DNA from: a virus
Reading direction: 5' to 3' (one strand)
Virus record (IMG/VR): IMGVR_UViG_3300039065_000016
DNA: 64,000 bases
Under the pieces are notes generated by a model. It was not told the origin of the DNA. It made no database searches and saw only the letters and a list, made by a program, of their open reading frames with translations. The position numbers were made by a program, and so were the translations under genes. This document shows positions 15,740 through 62,953 of this stretch, in pieces; the first letter of the stretch is position 1, and the number at the start of each line of letters is the position of its first letter.

Positions 15740-15771
15740 CGTTAATTCGAAGAGTCGTGGACTATGGCTGT

Positions 15772-15800
15772 ATTATATACGCAGGACATCTAAGGGTAAA
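15772..15800 (-). promoter_or_regulatory. sigma70-type promoter for the scaffold/capsid operon
   Basis: On the minus strand: TTTACC (15800-15795), N17, TATAAT (15777-15772), about 33 nt upstream of the scaffold ATG. Confidence 0.55.
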
Positions 15801-15854
15801 TAAGCGGAACAATAATTCGATGTAGCCGCGACTGTTAATTTACACTAGAATCTG

Positions 15855-16250
15855 TATTGTGACCTAATTACCGGACTTCCTCAGCCGCGAAAACTGGTAA
15901 ATTGGTTTCGGAAATTTGACGGGATTTGTCTAGGCCTACTGCCGCAAGACTTTCAATCTTTAAACTAATCCAAATTACCAATTTACCGATTAAAAATTGA
16001 ATTTCAATGCGTATAGAGCATATCGATTAACGTTATATTATAACGTTACTTATAGATGAATTCTATTAGAACGTTATTCCTAATTTCCCATGCTATATAC
16101 TTTTGCGGCATGCGGCGAAATCGGAAATTAGGAATTTAGCCTGTTAAAGCCTTGCGGCAGTAGGATTTCCAAATTACCGCTATTTCCCAGAAACGGTAAT
16201 TTGCGGCTATCCGGACCAGAATTTTTAGTCAGAATCCGGATTCTCGCGGC
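15855..16250. repeat. non-coding module copy R1 (inverted-repeat-flanked AT-rich core with AAWTTACC repeats)
   Basis: Perfect 14-bp inverted repeat at 15935-15948 / 16151-16164. Eight blocks collinear with 35445-35860. No credible ORF. Confidence 0.75.
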
Positions 16251-26308: not shown

Positions 26309-27754
26309 TTAGAAGTCGAAGAAACCTTTGGGCTTCCTGATCGGCAGAATGGCCGACATGATCACCGAATCAGCGATGTTCGGCGACTTGATCTTACGCT
26401 TCTCGCGCATATCCTTCTTGGACTCGACTTTGAATCGGCCGTTCATATCCAAGTCTTTGCGCGGCGAGGAAAGCTCGATACATAGCTGATTTAGTTTGTC
26501 CGGGTGAATTGTTTCAGAGTTGATCGAAATCAATTCGTCGAATGGATAAACCTTTCCATGGACAACCGCCTCGTAAGTCTTCCGGAATCTTGTCGCGACT
26601 TCTTCCCACTTTTGCGCCTTGATGTTGCTAAAGTGATCTTTGTTCTTGATCGTAGTGTGCGGCAGCTTCATGTAAATATCATCAGGCTTATCTACAGCGC
26701 CGCCCGCGTTGAATGGATCATAGGTCAGTTTGAAGTCTGGGCTGGAGTCATTCAATTCGGCGAACTTAGACCCGACGTGAGCGCCGACGCCGATGGAGTC
26801 ATAAGTGACCGAGGCGCCTTTCATCTTTGCCAGATTGTAAACGCGACTGGACGACTTGAGCAACTCATCTTCCAGACCATCCCATTCGTCCACTTCCATG
26901 ATGACGTTGCCGTGCATGAGAGTCGTGGCGTTCGCATCCTCGCCGTCATCCGCAACGTCGAAGCCGATGCGCTTCGACCCGGCCGGCTCCCAGCCGAGTT
27001 TTTTGTGGGCATCAATGGCAGCAAGGATGAACTTGAGGTTGATGACGGATTTGTCGCCGCCCGTCTTCGGAATCCCTCCATATATGTGCTCGGCCTGGTC
27101 CTTGTCGCGCTCATAAGCTTCGTGGATGACCTTGAGCATCGTCTCACTGAGAAACGGATTTTCGTTCCAGTTGATCATCTTGACGAAGGCGTCTTTGGGT
27201 GGCTTCACCACGAAGTTCTGATACACGAAGTCTGTTACTTCGTTCGGGTTGAAGATGATCCAGATTTCTGAGTTCTCTTTCCGAATGGTCGGCTCAATGA
27301 CTTCCCACTGTTCCTGGGTAAGGTAGTGAGCTTCCTCAAGCCAGAGAATGTCAATGCCTTCGGTGGACTTGATTTCCGACAGGTTACGGGCGATCCCATA
27401 GAATAAGAATTCTGATCCTGTCCTCTTGTGCTTGATCGAGTTCTTCGTGAAAATGAACTCGCCGTTGTACTCAGAATTCTCAATCTTGTCCTTGATCAAC
27501 GTGTAGACCGATTCGCTGATGCGGTTCTGAAACTGGCGAGCACAGAGGAACTTGAGTCTATAGTTGGCCGCGAGGTAAACGGCGATACCGCCTGCGTCGT
27601 GTGACTTCGAAGACGCCCGGCCGCCATAAATGACTTTGTAACGGGCGCGAGTTCGCCAGACCGCTCGCAGTGCAGGGTTGAGTTTGTACATTCTAATCAA
27701 TCCGGTGTCAGCAATAGGTCGAGTATATCGACGCCGCAACAGACGGTCGAGCAC
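26309..27754 (-). CDS. terL: terminase large subunit
   Basis: 481 aa. Walker A-like YGGRASSKSH, Walker B-like ILWLEEA and nuclease-type acidic motif FDVADDGED. GTG start at 27754, or ATG at 27691. Confidence 0.8.
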   Translation of the reverse strand: MLDRLLRRRYTRPIADTGLIRMYKLNPALRAVWRTRARYKVIYGGRASSKSHDAGGIAVYLAANYRLKFLCARQFQNRISESVYTLIKDKIENSEYNGEFIFTKNSIKHKRTGSEFLFYGIARNLSEIKSTEGIDILWLEEAHYLTQEQWEVIEPTIRKENSEIWIIFNPNEVTDFVYQNFVVKPPKDAFVKMINWNENPFLSETMLKVIHEAYERDKDQAEHIYGGIPKTGGDKSVINLKFILAAIDAHKKLGWEPAGSKRIGFDVADDGEDANATTLMHGNVIMEVDEWDGLEDELLKSSSRVYNLAKMKGASVTYDSIGVGAHVGSKFAELNDSSPDFKLTYDPFNAGGAVDKPDDIYMKLPHTTIKNKDHFSNIKAQKWEEVATRFRKTYEAVVHGKVYPFDELISINSETIHPDKLNQLCIELSSPRKDLDMNGRFKVESKKDMREKRKIKSPNIADSVIMSAILPIRKPKGFFDF

Positions 27755-33704: not shown

Positions 33705-33767
33705 CTCTTTCAACGGGGCGACAAACCGAAGCCCGAAAGAAATCTTCCAAAACAGAGGATCGCAGAA

Positions 33768-34382
33768 ATGACCAACTCCATCAAAACCTTCGGCGACATC
33801 CAGAACGCAGAAATGAAAGAACTGGTCGCCTTCTACAACTCTCACAACGCCGATGCGACTGTAAAGCGCTTCTCCGACCGCAAGACCGCCGAGCGTCGCT
33901 GCCTCGCCATCCTGAACGCTCTGCCGGCCGAGGAAGAAGCCTTCCAGGAAGAGGAAGCCCCGGCCAAGGTTTACAAAACCCGCACTTCCAAGAAGAAGGA
34001 AGAAGAGAAGGCCGAGGAAGAGAGCCTGAAGCCGGAAGAGGAAATCACCGAAGAGGAAGCGCTGGAAGAAATCAGGAAGATGCGCGAAGAGGCGAAGAAC
34101 GCTCCAGAGAAGGCCAAAGAGGCCAAAGACCTGTCGGCAGCCATCGCCAACTCCTGGAAAGACCCGGAAGTCTCCAGAAAGCGCACTCAGCGTCATGGAG
34201 TTGCCGTTACCGTCAAAGGCAAGCGCGGTGAGTTCCGGTCCACCAACGCAGCATTCATCGAGTTCGGCCTGCCCTCTTCGAAGCACATCCGCTTCCGCAT
34301 GCAGCTGAAGGAAGCCGGCAAGTTGACTTTCGAGCACGAAGGCGTCAAATACAACTTCGAAATCATCGAAGCTGGAGAATAA
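33768..34382 (+). CDS. hypothetical protein with highly charged central linker
   Basis: ATG at 33768 preceded by promoter 33676-33704 and the exact CCAAAACAGAGGA leader. 204 aa. Confidence 0.6.
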   Translation: MTNSIKTFGDIQNAEMKELVAFYNSHNADATVKRFSDRKTAERRCLAILNALPAEEEAFQEEEAPAKVYKTRTSKKKEEEKAEEESLKPEEEITEEEALEEIRKMREEAKNAPEKAKEAKDLSAAIANSWKDPEVSRKRTQRHGVAVTVKGKRGEFRSTNAAFIEFGLPSSKHIRFRMQLKEAGKLTFEHEGVKYNFEIIEAGE

Positions 34383-34395
34383 GAAACCCAAAAAG

Positions 34396-34436
34396 AAAGC
34401 CCCGGATTCTGAACTAGAGTCCGGGGCTTTGTCGTT
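34396..34436. terminator. bidirectional intrinsic terminator (early block 2 / terS-like gene)
   Basis: AAAGCCCCGGA, 13-nt loop, TCCGGGGCTTT, with an A-run before and a T-rich run after. Lies between convergent genes. Confidence 0.65.
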
Positions 34437-34458
34437 TCTGATTGTTATTGGTCGGCTT

Positions 34459-34538
34459 CCTAGAACAGCCCTAGAATCGTTTTTCGTCCCAACCCGCTAC
34501 CGTCGCCTTAGTTCGGTCCGATTCGGGCCTAGAACGAT
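34459..34538. repeat. three direct CCTAGAA(C/T) repeats
   Basis: CCTAGAAC at 34459-34466, CCCTAGAATCG at 34469-34479 and CCTAGAACGAT at 34528-34538, just downstream of the terS-like stop. Confidence 0.5.
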
Positions 34539-34544
34539 GTTATT

Positions 34545-35123
34545 TTATGTCTGAATGGGGTTGGCGCGGTCTTCCTCGGTCGGCTCCGGCGTCGGGGACG
34601 GGAAATCGCCCTCTTCGCCGTCCTGCACATAGCCATTGGCTTCGGCCGCAGCAGCGACGGTGGCGGTCTGAGCCTCGGCTTCTGATGCGTAGAAGTCGGC
34701 CAATCCGCGACCTACCCTGGTCTTACCAGACTCGTCAACGAACGTGATTTCGGCCAGAACGTTCAATTCCTTGATGGCCGACAGACGGCTGGAGTCCTTG
34801 ACGGTGGGATCACGAACCATCTGGAGAAGTTCGTGAAGCGCCGTCTTTGGATTCCATAGATCGGACGTTCTGGTCGCATTCAGCTTGGCTTTGAATTGCT
34901 TGCGATAGTACGGGTTGGACTCCATCGCGAAGATGCGGGCCTGGGCCGGGCCATCCATGTGCTCTTCGCCCCAGATCGCTCTGAAGACCCGCCAGGAGCT
35001 ATAGCCTTGAACGCGCAGGTCGATGTACAGATCGAAACGCTTCTGGTTGATCGCCGCGAACTGCGGATCAGCGAATTCCTGTGGCGTGACTAAATCGTCG
35101 GGGCTGTAATATTTGGCGGTCAT
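34545..35123 (-). CDS. putative terminase small subunit
   Basis: 192-aa lone leftward gene. LWNPKTALHELLQMVRD...RLSAIKELNVL resembles small-terminase helical motifs, and there is an acidic C-terminal tail. The call is tentative. Confidence 0.4.
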   Translation of the reverse strand: MTAKYYSPDDLVTPQEFADPQFAAINQKRFDLYIDLRVQGYSSWRVFRAIWGEEHMDGPAQARIFAMESNPYYRKQFKAKLNATRTSDLWNPKTALHELLQMVRDPTVKDSSRLSAIKELNVLAEITFVDESGKTRVGRGLADFYASEAEAQTATVAAAAEANGYVQDGEEGDFPSPTPEPTEEDRANPIQT

Positions 35124-35444
35124 TTGTTGCTGCGTCCCTGGAGTTCGATTCTTGGACCGTCGCGGTGGCTGGGTAGGTGGCTGGGACCTGGTGCTTGCCG
35201 CGACACTGAGTATGGCGCGATTGTACTATGGGGCCAGGGAGCGCGTCTATGGGCTGCTTGTGGGTGGCCTGTAGGTCTGGGTGGGTTTGATGGTGAATGA
35301 GTGTTAGGTGGTGTTATAGGATGTTATATGGGCGGTCTGCTGGCGGGTGAGGGTCGGATTGGTGGGTGGCGGGCGATGGTGGCGGTGAGTGTTTGGATTG
35401 AATGTTAAATCGGATGTTAGGAATATGTCCAGGTGAGCGATTCT

Positions 35445-35860
35445 GCCCTGTGACCAAATTTCCGGTTCCGCTCGTCGAGTTTTGGCCCCTGCCGCTTAGT
35501 CCGCCGTGGTGTTGCCGCTGCCCATGGTTTGGAAGGACGGAAGTTTCCGGCGACCCTGCCGCGAGTTGAGTGGAATCGGAAACTCGACGGGTAGTGTACC
35601 GGCTTAGTGCCGCGAGGCTTTCAAAGACTAAACTATTCCAAATTACCAAATTACCATTAATTTTATTAATTTTAAAGATAGGTAACGTCCGTGATAGATT
35701 TTTTCTATTAGGATTGTGCAATCGATTTTCGCTGTAGAATAGTTTTAAACCATGCTCGAAAAACCGGGAATTAGGGAATATGGCCGCAAACCCGCGCGGC
35801 AGTAGGCCTCCCATCTTCCCAGTCAGAATAGCAATCCAGGAATTTGCGGCTATTTCCACA
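35445..35860. repeat. non-coding module copy R2
   Basis: Collinear blocks shared with R1: 35449-35465, 35575-35591, 35603-35626, 35627-35656, 35703-35711, 35767-35779, 35797-35807, 35841-35853. Confidence 0.75.
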
Positions 35861-36040
35861 CAAAAATCCACCTCAAACCCACAATTTCTCAACATTTCAC
35901 GCAAAATCCAACCATCATACACTCCAGACCAATACCGAAATCTATTAACTTCCCATAATACGCCATCGCCACGCCAACCTAATTCCCACATAGCTTTCAA
36001 GCCTCACCCGTTCACAAGCTAAATTAATGTTCTCCGCGAC

Positions 36041-36068
36041 AAAGAAAAGACCGCCCGAAGGCGGCCTA
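36041..36068 (-). terminator. intrinsic terminator after the VirE-like gene
   Basis: On the minus strand: AGGCCGCC, TTCG loop, GGCGGTCT, TTTCTTTG. Confidence 0.6.
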
Positions 36069-36092
36069 ATCCACTCCAACTCAATCGACCTA

Positions 36093-37832
36093 TCAGAAAT
36101 CCTCGCCCAATATCTTGGCTCGCTCTGCCCGTACTGCTCGAATTTTTGCCATGGCAGCCTCATCGGTCATATCCGGATCGCCCTTTCTCAACAGATACAC
36201 CAGCGCATCATTGAATGGCGGCAGCGTCGTCTGCATATTCTTCGACCAGTCAGGCGCGACCTTATCCACAGGCAGGCACCATCCATTCAGGCCGTTCTTA
36301 TTCGGAATGAATCCCAGCGCTTTCAGGTGTGGAGTTAAATGGCGAGAAATCGGCTTCTTCCTGGCGAGAATATCGAACCACTTCAGAATGGAAACGGTGT
36401 CTGCCCTCCACCCAGGAGTCTTGGAATTCCCACCAGGCTTAACCTCTTCGAACTCACAACTGATCAGGACATTGATCAGATACATATCAATCGTATCGTC
36501 GCGAACCACGCCGCGCGCATTCTCCATTTCCGAAATAGAGAAGTTCTGGACTTCGCGGTTTGCTTCCGACACCATATTCAGGTAGCCATCGACGCCGTGC
36601 TCTTCGATCCATGCGCGGCATTCAGCCATCGCTTGCCAGAATTTGCGGCCGAAGTCGGTGAAGTCCACCTTGAACGGTTCATTGCCATCGCCCGGCTTAA
36701 CCCAGTTCGGCTTTCCATCCTCATCGGGCAGTTGCGCAACAAACATAGGATAGAAACGTCGGTTACCAGAGTCGTCCCGCTGGAGTCCATCGTAGCCGTT
36801 GCCGTCCATGATGGTGATCCATTGTCGCTTGATCGTTTCGCCCGGCTCAAACTTCTGGTCGAATGTATCAGAAGACCGCACCAAGAACTCCTTGATGCGT
36901 TCCATGTCGCCCTTTTTGAAGCCGGACATTTCCCCGACGTTCGCAATGACCGAGTTGCCGGTGATGTTGCGCAGGAATGGTGTCTGGTCGTGTCGGCTCA
37001 GGTCGAGCTGGACGGGAGCCAGATCGCGACCGCCCGACAGTTCCTTGCAGATCAGCAGGCCGAAATAGGATTTCCCCGCATCCTGCCCACCAATCAACGC
37101 CAGCGAGATCGGCGCCGAGATTCCAGGATAGTTGATGCGGCAGTACAGGCTCAGCCAGAAATACTTGCTCACCATCCGGTTCAATTCGGTGTCGAATGGC
37201 TTAAAAAGATCGATCAGCAACGTGCTAATTCGCTCTTCGCCGTCCCACTCCGGTATCTTCTTCTCGAACGTCTCTATCAGCGAGTTGCGGCGGTATCGAC
37301 GCGCCCAAACGCAGCAAGTCTCAATCGTCTTCTTAATCGAGGGATCGTCCAAGGCCGCAGCCGCGAGGGCGCCCATCAGGTCAATCGGGTCGAGGGTCTT
37401 GTTGTTGAACGCCACGCCGCGATGGTCCACCAGCCGTCCGCGAAACTCGTCGAAGTGCGGATGCGGGACGGTTCCATCACCCTTGCAGAACAAAGTATCG
37501 TACACCGCGAGATAGTTGCTGTCGGAAGTCGAGCTGTATTTAGTGATGAAGTCATCGAACGGCCCTTTCACCACCCGGCTGACCGGAAGATCGAACGCCT
37601 GGTCGAGCATCAACAATCGCGCTCGCTTTCTCAAGTCTGGTTCCGCATACGCCTCGGCGTATCTTGCCGCCTTTTGTGCGCGGTGCGTTTCGTTCCTCGC
37701 AATCGCATCATCGGCCGCCTTGCTCGCGGCGGTCATCAAAGGGTCCATTCCAGCATCTTCTATCTGTGTGAGATCGAACTCACTGGACCCTGATTCGTCA
37801 TCATCAAAAATATTATCTTCGTCGATAATCAT
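36093..37832 (-). CDS. VirE-family P-loop ATPase (putative replicative primase-helicase component)
   Basis: 579 aa. Walker A IGGQDAGKS and VirE-like GNGYDGLQRDDSGNRRFYPMFV. Confidence 0.65.
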   Translation of the reverse strand: MIIDEDNIFDDDESGSSEFDLTQIEDAGMDPLMTAASKAADDAIARNETHRAQKAARYAEAYAEPDLRKRARLLMLDQAFDLPVSRVVKGPFDDFITKYSSTSDSNYLAVYDTLFCKGDGTVPHPHFDEFRGRLVDHRGVAFNNKTLDPIDLMGALAAAALDDPSIKKTIETCCVWARRYRRNSLIETFEKKIPEWDGEERISTLLIDLFKPFDTELNRMVSKYFWLSLYCRINYPGISAPISLALIGGQDAGKSYFGLLICKELSGGRDLAPVQLDLSRHDQTPFLRNITGNSVIANVGEMSGFKKGDMERIKEFLVRSSDTFDQKFEPGETIKRQWITIMDGNGYDGLQRDDSGNRRFYPMFVAQLPDEDGKPNWVKPGDGNEPFKVDFTDFGRKFWQAMAECRAWIEEHGVDGYLNMVSEANREVQNFSISEMENARGVVRDDTIDMYLINVLISCEFEEVKPGGNSKTPGWRADTVSILKWFDILARKKPISRHLTPHLKALGFIPNKNGLNGWCLPVDKVAPDWSKNMQTTLPPFNDALVYLLRKGDPDMTDEAAMAKIRAVRAERAKILGEDF

Positions 37833-52979: not shown

Positions 52980-54535
52980 AAGCCAAAACCTTTCCAGTCA
53001 AGGGCATGAAGACCGAGGCGATGCAACACCAGTTCAATGCCCTGGAGGCTTCCCTTAACAAAAGGAATTTCGCATACCTGATGGAGCAAGGCACCGGGAA
53101 GACCTGGACTACTTTGGCAGACTCAGTTAGGCTCTTCCTGCAAGGAAGGGTTGACGCGCTGCTCATCGTCGCCCCCAAGGGCGTACACACGAACTGGATT
53201 CTGCGCGAGATTCCCACCCACGTTGCTATCAAGACTCTGTGCGTGGATTGGCGCGGCCGACCGACTTCCAAAAAGGCCAGGGCGCGTCTGGATCGTCTGT
53301 ATGCCGAGACATTCGCTGATGAAAAAGTTCTTCGGGTCTTTGCCATAAACGTCGATGCCATCAACCATCAGTCTGGCTATGACGAAGTGGAGCGATTCCT
53401 TAAGACGTTCAAAGTCTGCGCAATTGTGGATGAATCAACGAGGATCAAGAACCCACAGGCCAAACGAGCGAAAAAGATCGTAAAGCTGGGCGAGAAGGCC
53501 GTGGCGCGCCGCATACTCTCTGGTACGCCTCTGACGCGAGCGCCTACGGATTTGTTTATGCAGTTTCAATTCCTGCGTGATGGAATTCTGGGGACGAAAT
53601 CCTATCGCGCGTTCGTGGCTGAATTTTCCGTTCTGGTTCCAAGTGACGACCCGCGAATGGTCGCCATCATGCGCAAATTGGATGGGAAGAGCACTGTTCC
53701 ACCTCAGCTCGTCGAAAAAGACGATTTTGGGCGACCAGTATTCCGAAATCTTGACAAACTGCGGTCCCTGATCGAGCCGCACAGCTTCCGGGTCACGAAG
53801 AAAGAGGCATTGCCATTCCTGCCAGAAAAGGTTTACAAGCGCATATATTTCGAAATGTCGCCGGAGCAAAGGAAGATTTATCAGCGCGTTGAAGAGGACT
53901 ACCATTTCGTGCTCAAGAACGAAGATTTCATGCTGGATGTATCGTTCGATGCAGCAGCAGCGCGTTCGAAACTCAAGCAAGTGGCGTCCGGCTATATCAA
54001 CGTCTATGGGGAACCGGTGATCCTGCCGCCCGAAGACAACCCGCGATTCGCGGTATTCACCGACCTTCTGGAGGGTCTGTTGGAGGAAGACCCGGAACGG
54101 TCTATCATCATCTGGGCCATGCGGATTCACGAAATCGGCCAGATCGCTGCGTATCTTGAGGCCCAAGGAATTTCGTTTGGAGCCTATTATGGCGAGACCA
54201 AAGAGGCAGAACGAGAAAAACTGATCGATGATTTTCAGGCAAAGCGCGTCCAAGTCTTCCTGGGAAACCCGGCCGCTGCTGGGATCGGAATCACGCTCAC
54301 TGCCGCAGACGTGGCAATTTACTACACGACCGACGAAGACAACGAGTTGCGGATGCAGTCCGAAGACAGAAACCATCGCATCGGGACCATCAACTCTGTC
54401 CTGTACTTCGACCTCATCTGTCTGGACTCCATCGACGAGAAAATCCAGGTTAGCTTGGAGTGGAAGCGCAATCTTGCGAGTTATGTCGTCGATGGAGTGT
54501 TCGAGGCTGACGTTAGCACTCGCGACGAAATTTAA
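52976..54535 (+). CDS. SNF2-family helicase/translocase
   Basis: LMEQGTGKT (motif I), IVDESTRIKN (motif II) and a C-terminal helicase domain. ATGA overlap upstream. Confidence 0.75.
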   Translation: MKAKTFPVKGMKTEAMQHQFNALEASLNKRNFAYLMEQGTGKTWTTLADSVRLFLQGRVDALLIVAPKGVHTNWILREIPTHVAIKTLCVDWRGRPTSKKARARLDRLYAETFADEKVLRVFAINVDAINHQSGYDEVERFLKTFKVCAIVDESTRIKNPQAKRAKKIVKLGEKAVARRILSGTPLTRAPTDLFMQFQFLRDGILGTKSYRAFVAEFSVLVPSDDPRMVAIMRKLDGKSTVPPQLVEKDDFGRPVFRNLDKLRSLIEPHSFRVTKKEALPFLPEKVYKRIYFEMSPEQRKIYQRVEEDYHFVLKNEDFMLDVSFDAAAARSKLKQVASGYINVYGEPVILPPEDNPRFAVFTDLLEGLLEEDPERSIIIWAMRIHEIGQIAAYLEAQGISFGAYYGETKEAEREKLIDDFQAKRVQVFLGNPAAAGIGITLTAADVAIYYTTDEDNELRMQSEDRNHRIGTINSVLYFDLICLDSIDEKIQVSLEWKRNLASYVVDGVFEADVSTRDEI

Positions 54536-58966: not shown

Positions 58967-59629
58967 TCAGGAGCCTTGATTGATCGCGGCGACGGTCTTC
59001 ACATATCGGTTTATCCGGAGCTGACCGTGGTTCGCATCGTTCGGCGCAGCGCCGTTGATGGTCTTCACGACCATAGAGAAGTTGTTGGATTCCGCCATGG
59101 GTATGCAGCGATTGCGCCAGAAGAACCATGCCGAAGACATCGACGCGCCGGCAGGAGTTTCCAGCAGCTCCGGCTTCTCCAGAACGTCCATGCCGGAGTC
59201 TTCGGCAAACAGGGCATAGTTCGATTTCCCGGTCAGCTGAATCAGTCCGCGACCGCGATACTTCCAGCCGTCCCCGTCCTGCTCGCATCCATTACCCATG
59301 CGGTCAGCGTACACGTTGTTGGCGATGGCGACCGGATTGCGAGCCAGGCGGTTCGCCAGAGCGTTCGGTACATACGGACGGACACGCGGGTCCACGGCAT
59401 ATCGGCGCGGCCAAGTGTTGGCCAGTCCTTGAGCGCTGTAGTTGAGATTCTCCACCAGACTCACCAGTCCACCGGATTCGACACCGATGTTGGCGAGGTA
59501 AGCCGCGATGGCTCGCGGCGACTCGATCTGGAATTTATCCATGGCCGCCTGGATGTCATCCAGCCACTTGATCGCCCGATCCGTGGTACACCCGGTTCCG
59601 GTGATCAAAATATCCTTCGTTATTTTCAT
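58967..59629 (-). CDS. endolysin, glycoside hydrolase family 19
   Basis: ANIGVESGG and YRGRGLIQLTGKSNY motifs typical of GH19 chitinase-like lysins. No N-terminal signal sequence seen. Confidence 0.7.
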   Translation of the reverse strand: MKITKDILITGTGCTTDRAIKWLDDIQAAMDKFQIESPRAIAAYLANIGVESGGLVSLVENLNYSAQGLANTWPRRYAVDPRVRPYVPNALANRLARNPVAIANNVYADRMGNGCEQDGDGWKYRGRGLIQLTGKSNYALFAEDSGMDVLEKPELLETPAGASMSSAWFFWRNRCIPMAESNNFSMVVKTINGAAPNDANHGQLRINRYVKTVAAINQGS

Positions 59630-60057
59630 CAGTACTCCTGATTTTTGAACATTGTTTTCAGAGCCATGGGAAGTCGCGGCCGATCCCCGCTATTCCAGTC
59701 GCGAATCTGCTGCCTCCAGTGAACGAGGGCTGCGATCAGCCCAGGGCCGTCCGTGGTTTCGATACCCAGCCGTCTCTGCTCGTCGTGACGATCTATGGGC
59801 CAGCGGGTATCCCGAAGGATAGCCCGCTTTTCCCTGGCTCGTATAGCGTCCTGCAAGGCCTTCTCCCGCTTCGAATCGACCGGGGCGATAGGCCCGTGCT
59901 CCCCAGATAGAATCGCAGCGTATATGGCCCTTCCGTGGGCCTCCACGTCTTGCGGATTGGCGGTGAACGGCACTTCACCGATTCCCTCGAAAGTCACCAT
60001 GGCGTGGATGTTTACTGCGTCCAGCCAACGTGGGTTTCTGATCCGCGTCCATCTCAT
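59629..60057 (-). CDS. tail fibre assembly chaperone
   Basis: 142-aa ORF immediately downstream of the fibre gene. Tfa-like helical C-terminus. Assigned by position. Confidence 0.5.
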   Translation of the reverse strand: MRWTRIRNPRWLDAVNIHAMVTFEGIGEVPFTANPQDVEAHGRAIYAAILSGEHGPIAPVDSKREKALQDAIRAREKRAILRDTRWPIDRHDEQRRLGIETTDGPGLIAALVHWRQQIRDWNSGDRPRLPMALKTMFKNQEY

Positions 60058-60058
60058 T

Positions 60059-62953
60059 TTACGTCACTCGCTGGAAAAGGGTCGCGGAGTCAGGGGTGTT
60101 GGCGTCTCTGTTGACTACATATCCCATGCAGCGCCAAGTTCCGGCAGGTTTTTGACCGCTATTGTAGTTTGCGGCGCAAGACGAGTAGATGAGAATGGAA
60201 CCGTCCACTACCACTCCGGGTTGAACGGTTGCGATTGGAGCGGCATTATCCAGAACCGCGAAAATGCCATAGGAACCGACTCCGCCCAGACCGACCTGAA
60301 CCAACGCCTGGTTGATGTAGTTGTTGTAGTTCCCGGCGTGGATGACTGGGTAGGCGTTTGCCCCCAGGTTTCCACCACCTACTTTGAGAACGTTGTCGGT
60401 ATCCAAGCCGAAGTTGACGAAGATACTTCCACCACGCTCGAAAGTGACTGCGGCCGCTTGCCCTGAATGCGCGCCATTCTGTAGGTTGATGGCACCAACT
60501 CGACCGGACGAAGCGATGCCGCTACCAGTACCCGAAATGCGGTTGAAGATCATGTTGCCGTTGGTGGCGTTCGCGGCGTTCAAATCCACTTTCGTCGCCG
60601 GATCAAAGTTTCCGGATCGCCAGACGGTTTGGCCGTTCCAGGACGGCGCGGTCGGGTTGGACGCCCAAAGATTCATGATGTTGCTGGAATCGGCGATTTC
60701 CCTGGAGTTGTTGCCGAGCGATCCGCCGCCCCATTTCAGCTTGTTGTCGGTATCGATGCCGAAGAACGCGCCCCAGTTCCCAGGGCGAATAAACGCGATC
60801 ACAGCAGGCTTAGCAGATGGCCCAGTCGGCGAGTTATAAATCGTCAGGGGCGCCTGGGAATAGTCGGACAGAGACGCGATTGGTGCAAACGGCAGGGTTC
60901 CGCTGAATATCGCAGTGCTGCTAGTCTCCTGCGTGCCGGCTTTGATGGTTAGCTTTGTGTTCGGGTTGAAGTTCCATTCACCCCAGAACCATTGACCTCC
61001 CCAAACAGGAGCGCCAGACATTCCATTGACGTGATTCCGAATATTCGACTCGTCAGTGACCACATAGGAGTTATTGCCGAGCGACCAGCCTGCTCGCTTC
61101 AATTGGCCGTCCTTGTCCATTCCCAAATACCAGCCGGTTTGGGAGTTGTCGAAGTAGATGGCCGCAGGCTCGCCACCCCCTCTACCGAAGATTTGAAGAG
61201 CTGCGTTTCCATACGATGCAGTTGTGGAGCTGGAGCCCCAGGTGTTCATATTTCCGGTATTGCTGGTGGTATTACGAATTCCGGTCGGCCCCGAAATATT
61301 GTTGGTAGTACCGACAGTGAGCTTGGTGGCCGGATCAAAGTTTCCGGAGTCCCACGGAACATATTGTCCAGCAAACAGAGGGCGATTGTTGAATATGACG
61401 TTCGTGGACGCCCAGTCCCATCGCATGACCTGCGAGCGATAAGAGCCGTCCGGGTTGGTGGTATTGACTGCGATAACCGCGTTGTTGTTGGCGTCCACAC
61501 CTTGTGCGAAGGTGAATTTCCAACCGGGCTGATCGGCAGTTGTGTTCTGCCAAAGGGGGCCAGAGTTCGCGATGTACGCGAGGTTTTTCGCAACATCCAG
61601 TCGCGGCTGGAGGAATGTAACATTCGACCTGCTGAACAGGATATCCTGGGTAGGACCAGCGGACCCCTGGCGAGAATAGAACGCCATCGACCCATCAGCT
61701 TCAGAGATAAAGCGATAGTCGAAGTCTTTGGCGCGGTTGTTGTTGAAGTGGAAATCGATGAAAGGACGAGCGTCAGACAACTCCAGATTGGCGAACCACG
61801 GTGTGGTGTCTTGGATGGCGACGTTCGGCTTGTTGACGACGTCAGCCCAGTCCACTTCAGTCAACTTTTGGGACGCGACATAGTCCTTAACCTGTTTCCA
61901 GCTGGGAGCCTGATAATCTTGATCGGCGTTGCCTACTTGGATGCGCGGCGCGCCTGCGAGAATCCTCCAACGGTCGCCGGTGGCGTCGAATACAAGCTCA
62001 GCAATGAGTCCTTGACCGAGTTCTCCACCAGTCAACGGGAAGTTTGCCGCGCCGACGATGGCCTTGGCGCCAAATCCGGAGACGTTGATGGTGGAGGCGC
62101 CGGTGTTAACGGTGTTGAACTTGACCCGAAGGATCATGCCGTCCACCAGGCCGCCTTGGAGCTGCGGAACGAGCGTCAACGTGTAAGCGTTCGCCGAGCC
62201 AGCCGCGACCCCATAGGTCACACGGCCTTGTTGGAGGGCCATGACATTTACTGCGTACATCCAGTTGGTCCAGGCCCCGGCATTAAGCCCGCGCACAGCG
62301 ACGTTCCCGACGCGGTCAGTGTAGCGTTGAACGCAGAATGTATTGGACCCGGATATCCAGGATTTCGCCTCCAACATTCCAGCTGCTGCACCAGCCGAAG
62401 CGGGATATACGGGGGCGTTCTGAGAAGCGACGACCACTGAATCAGAGAAGAACTCCCACGTCCCATTCAACAGGTCATTGAAGTTGCGGCCGGTCGTGAT
62501 GACTTCTCCGCCAGAAGATAGGCCTGGGCCTCCAGCTGGCATCGGTATGTTGGAGCGCATCACCGACCATGCGGGTTGTTCTTCCCAAGTCGTGCTGCTG
62601 AGAGGGTCGCTCGCATTGGCATTCACCATGGAACGATAACGCCGCATTATGCCGTCATTGCCGACTCGCACGACTTCTGCATTCTGTTCGTAGCCGCCAG
62701 GCATGCCCTGAAACCACGGCGGCGCCATTTGCCGCTGCCAAGCCTGTGCGTTCTGGGTCGCGATGAAGAAGAGTTGGTTTTGAATTTTCCGCTCGACCGC
62801 TTTGGCCTGCGGGTTGTTCGACGCCAGACTGATTTCGTAGTCCGGCGTGTAGCCGTCGCGAAGGTTGGCAAAGCCAGTGGAAGAGGTCTGCGGGATCGGG
62901 TCTTTGTCGCCCTGCGCAGCAAACGGACTGGGTATCAGTTCGGGTGTGATCAC
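60059..62953 (-). CDS. tail fibre protein
   Basis: 964 aa, G/S/N/T-rich, with three internal ~120-aa repeat modules in the C-terminal half. Confidence 0.75.
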   Translation of the reverse strand: MITPELIPSPFAAQGDKDPIPQTSSTGFANLRDGYTPDYEISLASNNPQAKAVERKIQNQLFFIATQNAQAWQRQMAPPWFQGMPGGYEQNAEVVRVGNDGIMRRYRSMVNANASDPLSSTTWEEQPAWSVMRSNIPMPAGGPGLSSGGEVITTGRNFNDLLNGTWEFFSDSVVVASQNAPVYPASAGAAAGMLEAKSWISGSNTFCVQRYTDRVGNVAVRGLNAGAWTNWMYAVNVMALQQGRVTYGVAAGSANAYTLTLVPQLQGGLVDGMILRVKFNTVNTGASTINVSGFGAKAIVGAANFPLTGGELGQGLIAELVFDATGDRWRILAGAPRIQVGNADQDYQAPSWKQVKDYVASQKLTEVDWADVVNKPNVAIQDTTPWFANLELSDARPFIDFHFNNNRAKDFDYRFISEADGSMAFYSRQGSAGPTQDILFSRSNVTFLQPRLDVAKNLAYIANSGPLWQNTTADQPGWKFTFAQGVDANNNAVIAVNTTNPDGSYRSQVMRWDWASTNVIFNNRPLFAGQYVPWDSGNFDPATKLTVGTTNNISGPTGIRNTTSNTGNMNTWGSSSTTASYGNAALQIFGRGGGEPAAIYFDNSQTGWYLGMDKDGQLKRAGWSLGNNSYVVTDESNIRNHVNGMSGAPVWGGQWFWGEWNFNPNTKLTIKAGTQETSSTAIFSGTLPFAPIASLSDYSQAPLTIYNSPTGPSAKPAVIAFIRPGNWGAFFGIDTDNKLKWGGGSLGNNSREIADSSNIMNLWASNPTAPSWNGQTVWRSGNFDPATKVDLNAANATNGNMIFNRISGTGSGIASSGRVGAINLQNGAHSGQAAAVTFERGGSIFVNFGLDTDNVLKVGGGNLGANAYPVIHAGNYNNYINQALVQVGLGGVGSYGIFAVLDNAAPIATVQPGVVVDGSILIYSSCAANYNSGQKPAGTWRCMGYVVNRDANTPDSATLFQRVT

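What the first reader, a model, noticed from the sequence alone, without database searches (positions are those of the whole stretch)
35130..36035. 970-bp gene-free region with mirror-image strand skew (C-depleted left arm, G-depleted right arm) around the R2 core
On the plus strand, 35150-35440 is almost devoid of C; for example 35281-35340 has only 3 C in 60 nt. It is rich in GGTGG and TGTTA motifs (GAGTGTTAGG, GGTGTTATAGG, GGATGTTATATGG, GAATGTTAAATCGG, GGATGTTAGGAAT). In contrast, 35850-36010 is almost devoid of G; 35851-35910 has 1 G in 60 nt. Transcripts leaving the AT-rich core in either direction would therefore be C/A-rich and G-poor. Transcripts entering it would be G/U-rich. A relaxed G-quadruplex pattern, G3-N3-G3-N10-G3-N4-G3, lies at 35345-35373. 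The only track ORF here (35314-36000, -) reads through the AT-rich core and looks non-coding. Possible explanations are a long unstructured CA-rich 5' leader for the terS-like gene, a pair of divergent non-coding RNAs, or R-loop-prone G-rich strands converging on an origin-like core.
Basis: partly seen in the sequence, partly recalled or inferred. Interest (0 to 1): 0.6.

Follow-up and report, generated by a model that had tools for sequence, protein, structure and literature searches.

The report
Skewed arms flanking phage packaging site
The gene-free stretch is the DNA-packaging start region of a PB1-like Pseudomonas phage, and its two mirror-image G/T-rich arms are a real, unexplained feature shared by related phages of at least four other hosts.

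Summary
In the 64-kb window, 35250-35440 is the most C-poor stretch and 35850-36010 the most G-poor, each about 5 SD from the mean.

The window is a Pbunavirus (PB1-like phage). The 969-bp gap lies between the VapE-like primase/helicase gene and terS, whose product is 97% identical to the solved E217 small terminase. The AT-rich core is nearly invariant and holds the published packaging start. JG024 long reads and five database records all begin at AAAT|CGATT (window 35725|35724).

Published ONT-cappable-seq of phage 14-1 maps two terS promoters (window 35621 and 35213) and none on the other strand. The left arm is therefore part of the longer terS leader. The 228-aa ORF is not coding.

Phages of Aeromonas, Serratia and Burkholderia, whose TerS is only 32-41% identical, share the layout: G-rich arm, AT core, C-rich arm, terS. 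In E. coli phages the second arm is weak. PhageTerm or record ends fall in the core in two of these genera.

The strand ending 3' at the cut is G/T-rich on both sides. I read the arms as DNA-level flanks of the terminase cut, serving terminase assembly and/or end protection and recombination. This is untested.

An earlier first-reader note in this scan described the same stretch.

The parts
36093..37832 (-). VapE-like primase/helicase gene (14-1 gp75 homologue). It is the upstream neighbour in the terS direction.
   Evidence: Pfam PF05272 at E 1.6e-22 and phrog_4630.
36041..36067 (-). Intrinsic terminator of the replication operon.
   Evidence: Found by the terminator scan. It has the same sequence as the JG024 terminator at 59033-59059. 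Positions 36045-36068 are invariant in relatives.
35850..36010 (.). Right arm. It is G-poor on the + strand, so the - strand, which runs 5'->3' toward the cut, is G/T-rich. It lies on the non-packaged side of the cut.
   Evidence: Only 5.6% G. Relatives fall into three sequence classes (88-99%, 73-82% and 52-62% identity), and all keep 3.7-12% G.
35788..35808 (+). Right copy of the inverted motif CGCGGCAGTAGGCC that flanks the AT core.
   Evidence: Inverted repeat I1. Related copies flank the second AT-rich region at 15936-15956 and 16140-16165.
35620..35760 (.). AT-rich core (28% GC) holding the packaging-series start. The cut lies between 35725 and 35724, inside AATCGATT.
   Evidence: The Ab28 record ends exactly at 35724. 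Four other records (Ab29, PA8P1, PAP8, Pa193) start within about 2 bp of it. JG024 59,376 maps to the same base (PMC10913387, PMC4482731, PMC6521218). Invariant runs at 35665-35698 and 35718-35737.
35622..35670 (-). Distal sigma-70 promoter of terS (14-1 P040), with its TSS at 35621.
   Evidence: ONT-cappable-seq table for 14-1, mapped to the window. LBL3 annotates predicted promoters here. A contig of the ONT cDNA run X5 (presumably that study) starts at about 35622.
35441..35619 (-). GC-rich, unskewed first part of the long terS leader. It begins with the motif AAGCCTCGCGGCACTAAGCC.
   Evidence: Composition. The RNA fold z-score is 0.08, so no special structure is indicated.
35250..35440 (.). 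Left arm. It is C-poor and G/T-rich on the + strand, which runs 5'->3' toward the cut. It lies on the packaged side and is transcribed on the - strand as the CA-rich part of TU045.
35294..35328 (+). Invariant block with three TGTTA motifs at exact 10-bp spacing.
35341..35392 (+). Tandem tract of G-rich units with a period of about 13 nt. Copy number varies among relatives.
   Evidence: Indels of +35, +40, -13 and -12 in relatives. GCTGGCGG lies at 35339; most relatives have GCTGGTGG there.
35400..35424 (+). Second pair of TGTTA motifs at 12-bp spacing. One relative has a third copy from a 12-nt insertion.
35199..35240 (-). Proximal sigma-70 promoter of terS (14-1 P041), with -10 TACAAT at 35225-35220 and TSS at 35213.
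   Evidence: This is a 42-nt invariant run. ONT contig depth rises from 27 to 160 across it.
34545..35123 (-). terS, the small terminase subunit gene.
   Evidence: Matches PDB 7UXE 'Small terminase' (E217) at E 2.8e-121 and about 97% identity.

Best explanation
This is the packaging-initiation (pac) and terS-control region of a PB1-like phage.

Shown or taken from published data:
- Terminase makes the series-initiating cut in the invariant AT-rich core (AAAT|CGATT, window 35725|35724).
- DNA is packaged toward terS.
- Two sigma-70 promoters fire toward terS, with TSS at 35621 and 35213.
- The left arm lies inside the 498-nt leader of the longer terS mRNA.

Inferred:
- The mirror skew is a DNA-level property tied to the cut. 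On each side, the strand that ends 3' at the cut is G/T-rich and C-poor.
- I favour two non-exclusive roles.

Role 1: the skew makes the 3' tails left after resection Chi-like, RecA-preferred (TGG-rich) DNA. This would protect the cut ends and promote recombination.

Role 2: the invariant, helically phased TGTTA and G-rich repeats of the left arm are the assembly array for the decameric TerS ring, like pacR of SPP1.

The confidence given (0.55) is for the composite claim that this is the pac locus and that the skew acts at the DNA level in relation to the cut. The pac-locus part alone I put at about 0.85, and each of the two roles at about 0.3.
For: Identity and location:
- The window is a Pbunavirus.
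- terS matches PDB 7UXE.

Cut site:
- Five records (Ab28, Ab29, PA8P1, PAP8, Pa193) begin at window 35722-35726.
- Essoh 2015 placed the ends from reads with a fixed termination.
- In JG024, 36 of 161 long reads start at 59,376, and a pac restriction fragment was seen. That position is the same base as window 35724.
- PhageTerm placed the SCUT-S1 pac site in an AT-rich region.
- The core is nearly invariant while its flanks vary.

Conservation outside the genus:
- The order G-rich arm, AT core, C-rich arm, terS recurs in Aeromonas phage Gekk3-15, Serratia phages WR01 and MyoSmar, and Burkholderia phage Maja.
- It recurs partly in E. coli Wifcevirus.
- There is no nucleotide similarity to the window.
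- The WFC record start (-360) and the MyoSmar PhageTerm terminal-repeat boundary (-387) fall in the AT core.

Composition rather than sequence is kept:
- The right arm is 52-62% identical between allele classes yet stays G-poor.
- The arms share no more words than composition-matched shuffles.

Polarity and Chi-like words:
- GCTGGTGG occurs 1-3 times in the left arm of 18 of 20 Pbunaviruses.
- It is enriched against dinucleotide shuffles on the packaged side in Gekk3, WR01, MyoSmar and Wifcevirus.
- It is always oriented toward the cut and never the other way.
- RecA prefers TGG repeats (PMC3763553).
- A sharp mosaic junction lies at 35747, 23 bp from the cut.

Phased repeats: the TGTTA cluster is unique in the window and invariant.
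Against: - No binding or cleavage experiment has been done on the arms.
- A review reports that E217 TerS showed no appreciable DNA binding in vitro (PMC9611059). The substrates used are unknown to me.
- Pseudomonas RecBCD is reported not to recognise GCTGGTGG. The Pseudomonas Chi, GCTGGCGC, is absent from the arms. The window has only the 7+1 variant GCTGGCGG.
- The right arm carries no Chi octamer.
- Only the first headful of a packaging series carries the pac end.
- The arms start 125-280 bp from the cut, not at it.
- The left arm is also transcribed, so an RNA-level role cannot be separated from a DNA-level role by sequence alone.
Confidence: 0.55

Rival explanations
1. RNA-level function only. 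Transcripts leaving the core are C/A-rich, G-poor and unstructured. The left arm would act as an unstructured leader of terS mRNA, either as a translational enhancer or as a Rho-loading (rut-like) attenuator that limits TerS dosage. The right arm would let Rho silence antisense transcripts leaving the AT-rich core.
For: - TU045 from P040 carries the arm as part of a 498-nt leader.
- On the RNA the arm is 45% C and 9% G, mostly unpaired in the minimum-energy fold, with a fold z-score of -0.9.
- C-rich tracts recur about every 13 nt.
- The review states that TerS overexpression reduces E217 infectivity.
- That Rho prefers C-rich, G-poor RNA is from my own knowledge.
Against: - No TSS was mapped on the other strand, so the right arm has no outgoing transcript.
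- No premature 3' end was called in the leader, and TU045 reaches the terS terminator.
- A second promoter (P041) lies downstream of the arm.
- In Gekk3, WR01 and ECML-117, consensus promoters lie between the arm and terS.
- The arm conserved most widely across genera is the upstream, non-leader one.
Confidence: 0.15
2. Replication origin. G-rich transcripts entering the AT-rich core would form R-loops that prime replication next to the primase/helicase operon, as at ColE1 or T4 oriF.
For: - An AT-rich unwinding-prone core lies directly downstream of the RepB-like primase and VapE-like helicase genes.
- RNA reading through the terminator would be G/U-rich across the right arm.
- The SCUT-S1 authors speculated that the AT-rich pac region 'could be a replication origin'.
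Against: - The core coincides with the packaged-DNA start in several data sets.
- The skew polarity (positive to the left, negative to the right on the + strand) is the reverse of what leading-strand bias gives at a bidirectional origin.
- No transcript enters the left arm from the terS side beyond about 14-1 position 59828.
- The cumulative GC-skew minima reported for phage Banzai (42,280 and 52,360 from terL) do not coincide with this site. By my estimate from terL at 26309-27754, the site lies about 58 kb from terL.
- No iterons were found.
Confidence: 0.07
3. No function of its own. The skew would be a by-product of repeat expansion or of strand-biased damage, such as deamination of strands exposed as single strands at the cut end.
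For: - The arms share composition but not sequence.
- The left arm contains expanding and contracting tandem units.
- The C-depleted strand is the one expected to be single-stranded after 5'-3' resection.
Against: - G reaches 38-45%, which C-to-T decay cannot produce.
- The layout is kept in at least five genera with unrelated arm sequences.
- Blocks inside the left arm are invariant across 20 phages, more conserved than adjacent coding DNA.
Confidence: 0.08
4. The ORF 35314-36000(-), belonging to phrog_18478, encodes a protein.
For: The ORF is 228 aa long, and homologous ORFs are annotated in some relatives such as chumba, Epa14, Epa7 and JG024.
Against: - The longest frame falls to 105-162 aa in 12 of 18 relatives, and indels of 35 and 40 nt lie inside it.
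- Variable columns split 35:34:35 over codon positions (p = 0.99), against 3:2:25 in terS.
- Curated records (14-1, LBL3, LMA2) leave the gap unannotated.
- The frame crosses the cut site and both mapped promoters.
Confidence: 0.01

Closest known systems
SPP1 pac region (pacL - pacC - pacR)
   Same: It belongs to a headful phage. The cut lies in a central segment flanked by two arms, with the packaged-side arm next to or within the terS gene. Recognition is thought to involve multiple contacts flanking the cut (PMC9611059).
   Different: - This region is about 860 bp, against roughly 300 bp from my own knowledge.
- The arms are defined by mirror strand composition.
- One arm is conserved only in composition.
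- terS is separated from terL (about 8 kb downstream here).
- TerS binding is untested.
Phage P1 pac (hexamer arrays on both sides of the cleavage zone; from my own knowledge)
   Same: Repeated short motifs flank a central cleavage zone on both sides.
   Different: Here no single shared motif occurs in both arms. No Dam-type GATC control is evident. The symmetry is compositional and polar.
Chi sites embedded in G/T-rich, RecA-preferred DNA in E. coli
   Same: The G/T-rich strand ends 3' at the break. Correctly oriented GCTGGTGG words are enriched on the packaged side in five lineages. RecA prefers TGG repeats (PMC3763553).
   Different: The reported Pseudomonas Chi (GCTGGCGC) is absent from the arms. 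The right arm has no Chi word. No RecBCD or RecA dependence has been shown.
Rho-utilisation (rut) regions and C-rich untranslated leaders
   Same: The left-arm RNA is long, untranslated, C-rich, G-poor and unstructured.
   Different: No termination was seen inside it in ONT-cappable-seq. The mirror arm has no mapped outgoing transcript.

Membership tests
pac-type packaging initiation site | A preferred, fixed start of packaged DNA lies within the site, in a phage with circularly permuted genomes. | tested here: met
   I mapped published ends onto the window. JG024 59,376 and the starts of Ab28, Ab29, PA8P1, PAP8 and Pa193 fall at 35722-35726. Permutation and the pac fragment come from PMC10913387. 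The physical data are from relatives 83-96% identical to the window, not from this isolate.
pac-type packaging initiation site | The site lies next to or within the small terminase gene. | tested here: met
   The cut lies 601 nt upstream of the terS ATG, and terS is identified through PDB 7UXE.
pac-type packaging initiation site | TerS or terminase binds specifically to the flanking DNA. | not testable with these tools
   Only indirect evidence exists: invariant phased TGTTA repeats. A review reports no appreciable DNA binding by E217 TerS in vitro.
Chi recombination hotspot | The host's cognate Chi octamer is present in the orientation met by RecBCD entering from the end. | tested here: inconclusive
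   The Pseudomonas Chi GCTGGCGC is absent from the arms, and the window has only GCTGGCGG at 35339. The E. coli-type GCTGGTGG is present and correctly oriented in 18 of 20 Pbunaviruses and in the Aeromonas, Serratia and E. coli relatives.
Bidirectional replication origin | An AT-rich unwinding element with initiator repeats, and a GC-skew switch from negative to positive. | tested here: not met
   The AT-rich element is present. No iterons were found. The local skew switches from positive to negative, the opposite polarity.
Rho-dependent attenuator (rut) | A C-rich, G-poor, unstructured, untranslated RNA followed by premature 3' ends. | tested here: inconclusive
   The composition and lack of structure are met. 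No premature 3' end is listed in the 14-1 tables, and TU045 is full length.
G-quadruplex | Four conserved G3 tracts with short loops. | tested here: not met
   The pattern is present in the window at 35345-35373 with a 10-nt loop. It is absent in 10 of the 19 relatives, and the second tract reads GGA in many.
Protein-coding gene (phrog_18478) | A conserved open frame with substitutions concentrated at the third codon position. | tested here: not met
Known RNA family (Rfam) | A match reaching the family's gathering score. | tested here: not met
   The only match is one chance hit at E 0.93, outside the region. Fold z-scores are -0.9, 0.1 and -1.0.

The most novel reading that the evidence does not exclude
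The arms would be a composition-encoded, polar packaging signal. Strand-asymmetric G/T-rich DNA would point at the cut from both sides. It would be read either on single strands after resection or by a directional translocase, as KOPS and Chi are read. It would couple the terminase cut to end protection and recombination-dependent concatemer maintenance. Such a signal would be conserved as composition, not sequence, across PB1-like myophages of Pseudomonas, Aeromonas, Serratia, Burkholderia and E. coli.
Probability: 0.2. Interest if true: 0.75.

Novelty: new variant of a known kind. Interest (0 to 1): 0.5.

Why it matters
How the small terminase of headful phages finds its DNA is still open. 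The E217 TerS structure is solved, yet it showed no DNA binding in vitro, and the Pbunavirus pac site is only tentatively placed.

This analysis gives a precise cut site. It also gives a defined architecture of about 860 bp and a property, polar G/T-rich flanks, that is conserved across at least five host genera. That provides concrete DNA substrates and mutants to test.

Pbunaviruses are widely used therapy phages and can transduce. Knowing their packaging signal therefore matters for phage engineering and for judging transduction risk.

Tried and rejected
- Rfam scan: nothing relevant.
- tRNA scan: none found.
- RNA folding of the leader, the middle segment and the right arm: no better than shuffles. 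The 10-bp long-range stem 35473-35482/35580-35589 shows changes in relatives that break pairs.
- Inverted duplication of the arms: shared 7- and 8-mers and the local alignment score are not above composition-matched shuffles (P = 0.05-0.07).
- G-quadruplex: not conserved.
- KOPS (GGGNAGGG): none in the arms.
- Exact Pseudomonas Chi: none in the arms.
- Coding ORF: rejected.
- Public RNA runs could be laid only as assembled contigs. One run showed a roughly 12-fold higher word depth on the terS side of the core, and the ONT cDNA run X5 had a contig starting at about 35622. These were weak hints, later superseded by the published TSS tables.
- Parts without contig cover (35763-35839) say nothing, because the relatives' right arm is too diverged to lay.
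- The window's own assembly is not held.
- The E217 terminase paper (PMC10026623) could not be read.
- The search for related loci in viral contigs gave only 4 loci, so relatives were taken from the phage records instead.

Full report
WHAT IS THERE

The window is a PB1-like Pseudomonas aeruginosa myophage (Pbunavirus). A 1.2-kb query over the region matches 283 phage records, all but one named Pseudomonas phages, at 80-96% identity. The window's minus strand is the conventional forward strand of these genomes.

The finding lies in the 969-bp gap 35124-36092. On one side is a VapE-like primase/helicase gene (36093-37832, minus) with its intrinsic terminator at 36067-36041. This is the terminator reported after JG024 ORF77. 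On the other side is a 192-aa gene (34545-35123, minus). Its product matches PDB 7UXE, the decameric small terminase of phage E217, at E 2.8e-121 and about 97% identity. The 'terS-like gene' is therefore terS.

THE OBSERVATION

- 35250-35440 has 8.9% C, with G 45% and T 31%.
- 35850-36010 has 5.6% G, with C 38% and A 35%.
- With 160-nt windows these are the lowest C and the lowest G of the whole 64 kb, each about 5 sd below the mean.
- The core between them (35620-35760) is 28% GC.
- The five TGTTA motifs lie at 35302, 35312, 35322, 35403 and 35415. This is the only such cluster in the window, although the word is under-represented overall.

NOT CODING

The 228-aa ORF (35314-36000, minus) matches phrog_18478 only because some relatives annotate it.
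- In 18 other relatives the longest frame drops to 105-162 aa in 12.
- Indels of +35, +40, -13 and -12 nt lie inside it.
- Variable alignment columns split 35:34:35 over its codon positions (p = 0.99), against 3:2:25 in terS.
- Annotation in relatives is inconsistent: one ORF, several small ORFs on either strand, or none.

THE CORE IS THE PACKAGING START

- Records of phages Ab28, Ab29, PA8P1 and PAP8 begin inside the query at window 35722-35726. Pa193 begins about 600 nt before terS.
- Ipoutcha et al. found that 36 of 161 long reads of JG024 start at 59,376 +/- 5. They saw a matching pac restriction fragment and concluded headful packaging of a permuted genome (PMC10913387).
- I fetched JG024. 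Position 59,376 is the C of GCGAAAAT|CGATTGC, the same base at which Ab28 starts, which is window 35724.
- PhageTerm on SCUT-S1 also put the pac site 'in an AT-rich region' (PMC6521218).
- The cut lies in the palindrome AATCGATT.
- Packaging runs toward terS.
- In an alignment of 20 diverse Pbunavirus sequences the core is nearly invariant (runs at 35665-35698 and 35718-35737), while terS itself is about 90-96% identical. A sharp mosaic junction follows at 35747.

TRANSCRIPTION

The supplement of the ONT-cappable-seq study of phage 14-1 lists only two TSS between positions 54,251 and 60,949. Both are on the terS strand and both are sigma-70 type: P040 at 59,399 and P041 at 59,807. They map to window 35621 and 35213.
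- TU045 (P040 to 60,626; 1227 nt) and TU046 (P041 to 60,727) both carry terS.
- No 3' end is called inside the leader.
- The left arm is therefore transcribed as the C/A-rich part of a 498-nt leader. terS also has a short-leader transcript that starts downstream of the arm.
- No transcript starts on the other strand.
- P041 sits in a 42-nt invariant block.
- Assembled contigs of public RNA runs are compatible with this but add little.

THE ARMS IN RELATIVES

Within Pbunavirus the left arm is 85-95% identical. It contains an invariant block (35294-35328) with three TGTTA at exact 10-bp spacing. It also contains a G-rich tract with a period of about 13 nt whose unit number varies.

The right arm falls into three sequence classes, down to 52-62% identity. 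Every class keeps 3.7-12% G and 32-39% C. Once composition is controlled, the two arms share no significant sequence. The constraint on the right arm is therefore compositional.

BEYOND THE GENUS

tblastn with TerS finds homologues at 32-44% identity in phages of Aeromonas, Serratia, Burkholderia, E. coli, Xanthomonas/Xylella and Luteibacter. Read on the terS strand, the same order recurs with no nucleotide similarity to the window: primase, then a G-rich/C-poor arm, then an AT-rich core, then a C-rich/G-poor arm, then terS. The table gives GC skew of the upstream arm, position of the AT-rich core relative to the terS ATG, and GC skew of the downstream arm.

| Phage | Upstream arm skew | AT core position | Downstream arm skew |
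|---|---|---|---|
| Gekk3-15 (Aeromonas) | +0.65 | -550 | -0.71 |
| WR01 (Serratia) | +0.65 | -427 | -0.63 |
| MyoSmar (Serratia) | +0.79 | -424 | about -0.4 |
| Maja (Burkholderia) | +0.68 | -399 | -0.50 |

- E. coli Wifcevirus has a strong upstream arm (+0.76) and an AT core, but a weak downstream arm.
- Carpasinavirus shows only a faint version, and Luteibacter phage Pluto shows none.
- In two of these genera the physical end falls in the AT core. The WFC record, which carries a terminal repeat, starts 360 nt before terS. The PhageTerm repeat boundary of MyoSmar lies at -387.
- In Gekk3, WR01 and ECML-117, near-consensus sigma-70 promoters lie between the C-rich arm and terS. The arm is therefore not merely a leader.

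WHAT THE SKEW MEANS

On both sides of the cut, the strand that ends 3' at the cut is G/T-rich (72-82% G+T) and C-poor. This polarity is what 5'-3' resection of a double-strand break would expose.

The canonical Chi word GCTGGTGG occurs 1-3 times in the left arm of 18 of 20 Pbunaviruses. It is enriched against dinucleotide-preserving shuffles on the packaged side in several lineages:
- Gekk3: 2 copies, P = 0.0008.
- WR01: 1 copy in the arm plus 2 after terS.
- MyoSmar: 4 copies, P < 0.0002.
- Wifcevirus: 1 copy, P = 0.007.

It is always in the orientation met by RecBCD entering from the cut end, and never in the other orientation. RecA prefers TGG-repeat DNA (PMC3763553).

Against this reading:
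- Pseudomonas enzymes are reported not to recognise the E. coli Chi.
- The Pseudomonas Chi (GCTGGCGC) is absent from the arms. The window has only GCTGGCGG, a variant partly recognised by the P. syringae enzyme.
- The right arm has no Chi word.

The phased, invariant TGTTA and G-rich repeats look instead like a protein-binding array. TerS is the obvious candidate, by analogy with SPP1 pacR. However, E217 TerS is reported not to bind DNA appreciably in vitro.

VERDICT

The region is the pac and terS-control locus (about 0.85).

I read the mirror skew as a DNA-level property of the two flanks of the terminase cut. I give end protection/recombination and terminase assembly about 0.3 each, and they are not exclusive.

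Lower-ranked readings:
- A purely RNA-level role: about 0.15.
- An origin with R-loops: about 0.07. The skew polarity is opposite to that of an origin, and the reported genome-wide skew minima lie elsewhere.
- A neutral by-product: about 0.08.

The pac location in an AT-rich region is already in the literature. I did not find the polar arms or their conservation across genera described in the papers searched.

Noticed in passing
window 15740-16250: A second AT-rich intergenic region lies upstream of the head protease and major capsid operon. It shares an 86-bp stretch (78% identity) with 35576-35660. It carries the CTTGCGGCAGTAGG motif as an inverted pair flanking its AT core. In 14-1 only the proximal promoter P014 (13,257) was mapped there, so the role of the shared module is unexplained.
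   Followed up: partly
window 35601-35621 and 35788-35808; L025:1735-1760; L026:1480-1500: A motif of the form AAAG-N-CTYGCGGCA-N-TA lies about 100 nt on the packaged side of the terminus in Pbunavirus, E. coli Wifcevirus and Aeromonas phage Gekk3-15. These genera share no other nucleotide similarity. In 14-1 the motif starts at +4 of the P040 transcript.
   Followed up: partly
window 35747: A sharp mosaic junction lies 23 bp from the cut. To its right, Pbunaviruses fall into three allele classes, and these also differ in the 3' end of the primase gene. This suggests frequent recombination at the packaging end.
   Followed up: partly
window 35124-35195: The short terS leader downstream of TSS 35213 is the most variable part of the packaged side. 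It contains the direct repeat GGTGGCTGGG twice, 12 nt apart.
   Followed up: no
L029:2200-2560 (Serratia phage MyoSmar): Four GCTGGTGG words lie within 340 nt, 1.1-1.45 kb inside the left terminal repeat. All are oriented toward the genome end and lie on the non-coding strand of the small annotated ORFs.
   Followed up: partly
14-1 positions 61300 to 59828 (about window 33720-35191, + strand): The ONT tables list reads from promoter P043 whose most distant 3' end is 59,828. This is antisense read-through across the whole of terS, stopping near the P041 start.
   Followed up: no
window 26309-27754 versus 34545-35123: terL and terS are separated by about 6.8 kb of opposite-strand small genes. 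The same split was reported for E217 and holds in all the distant relatives examined.
   Followed up: partly
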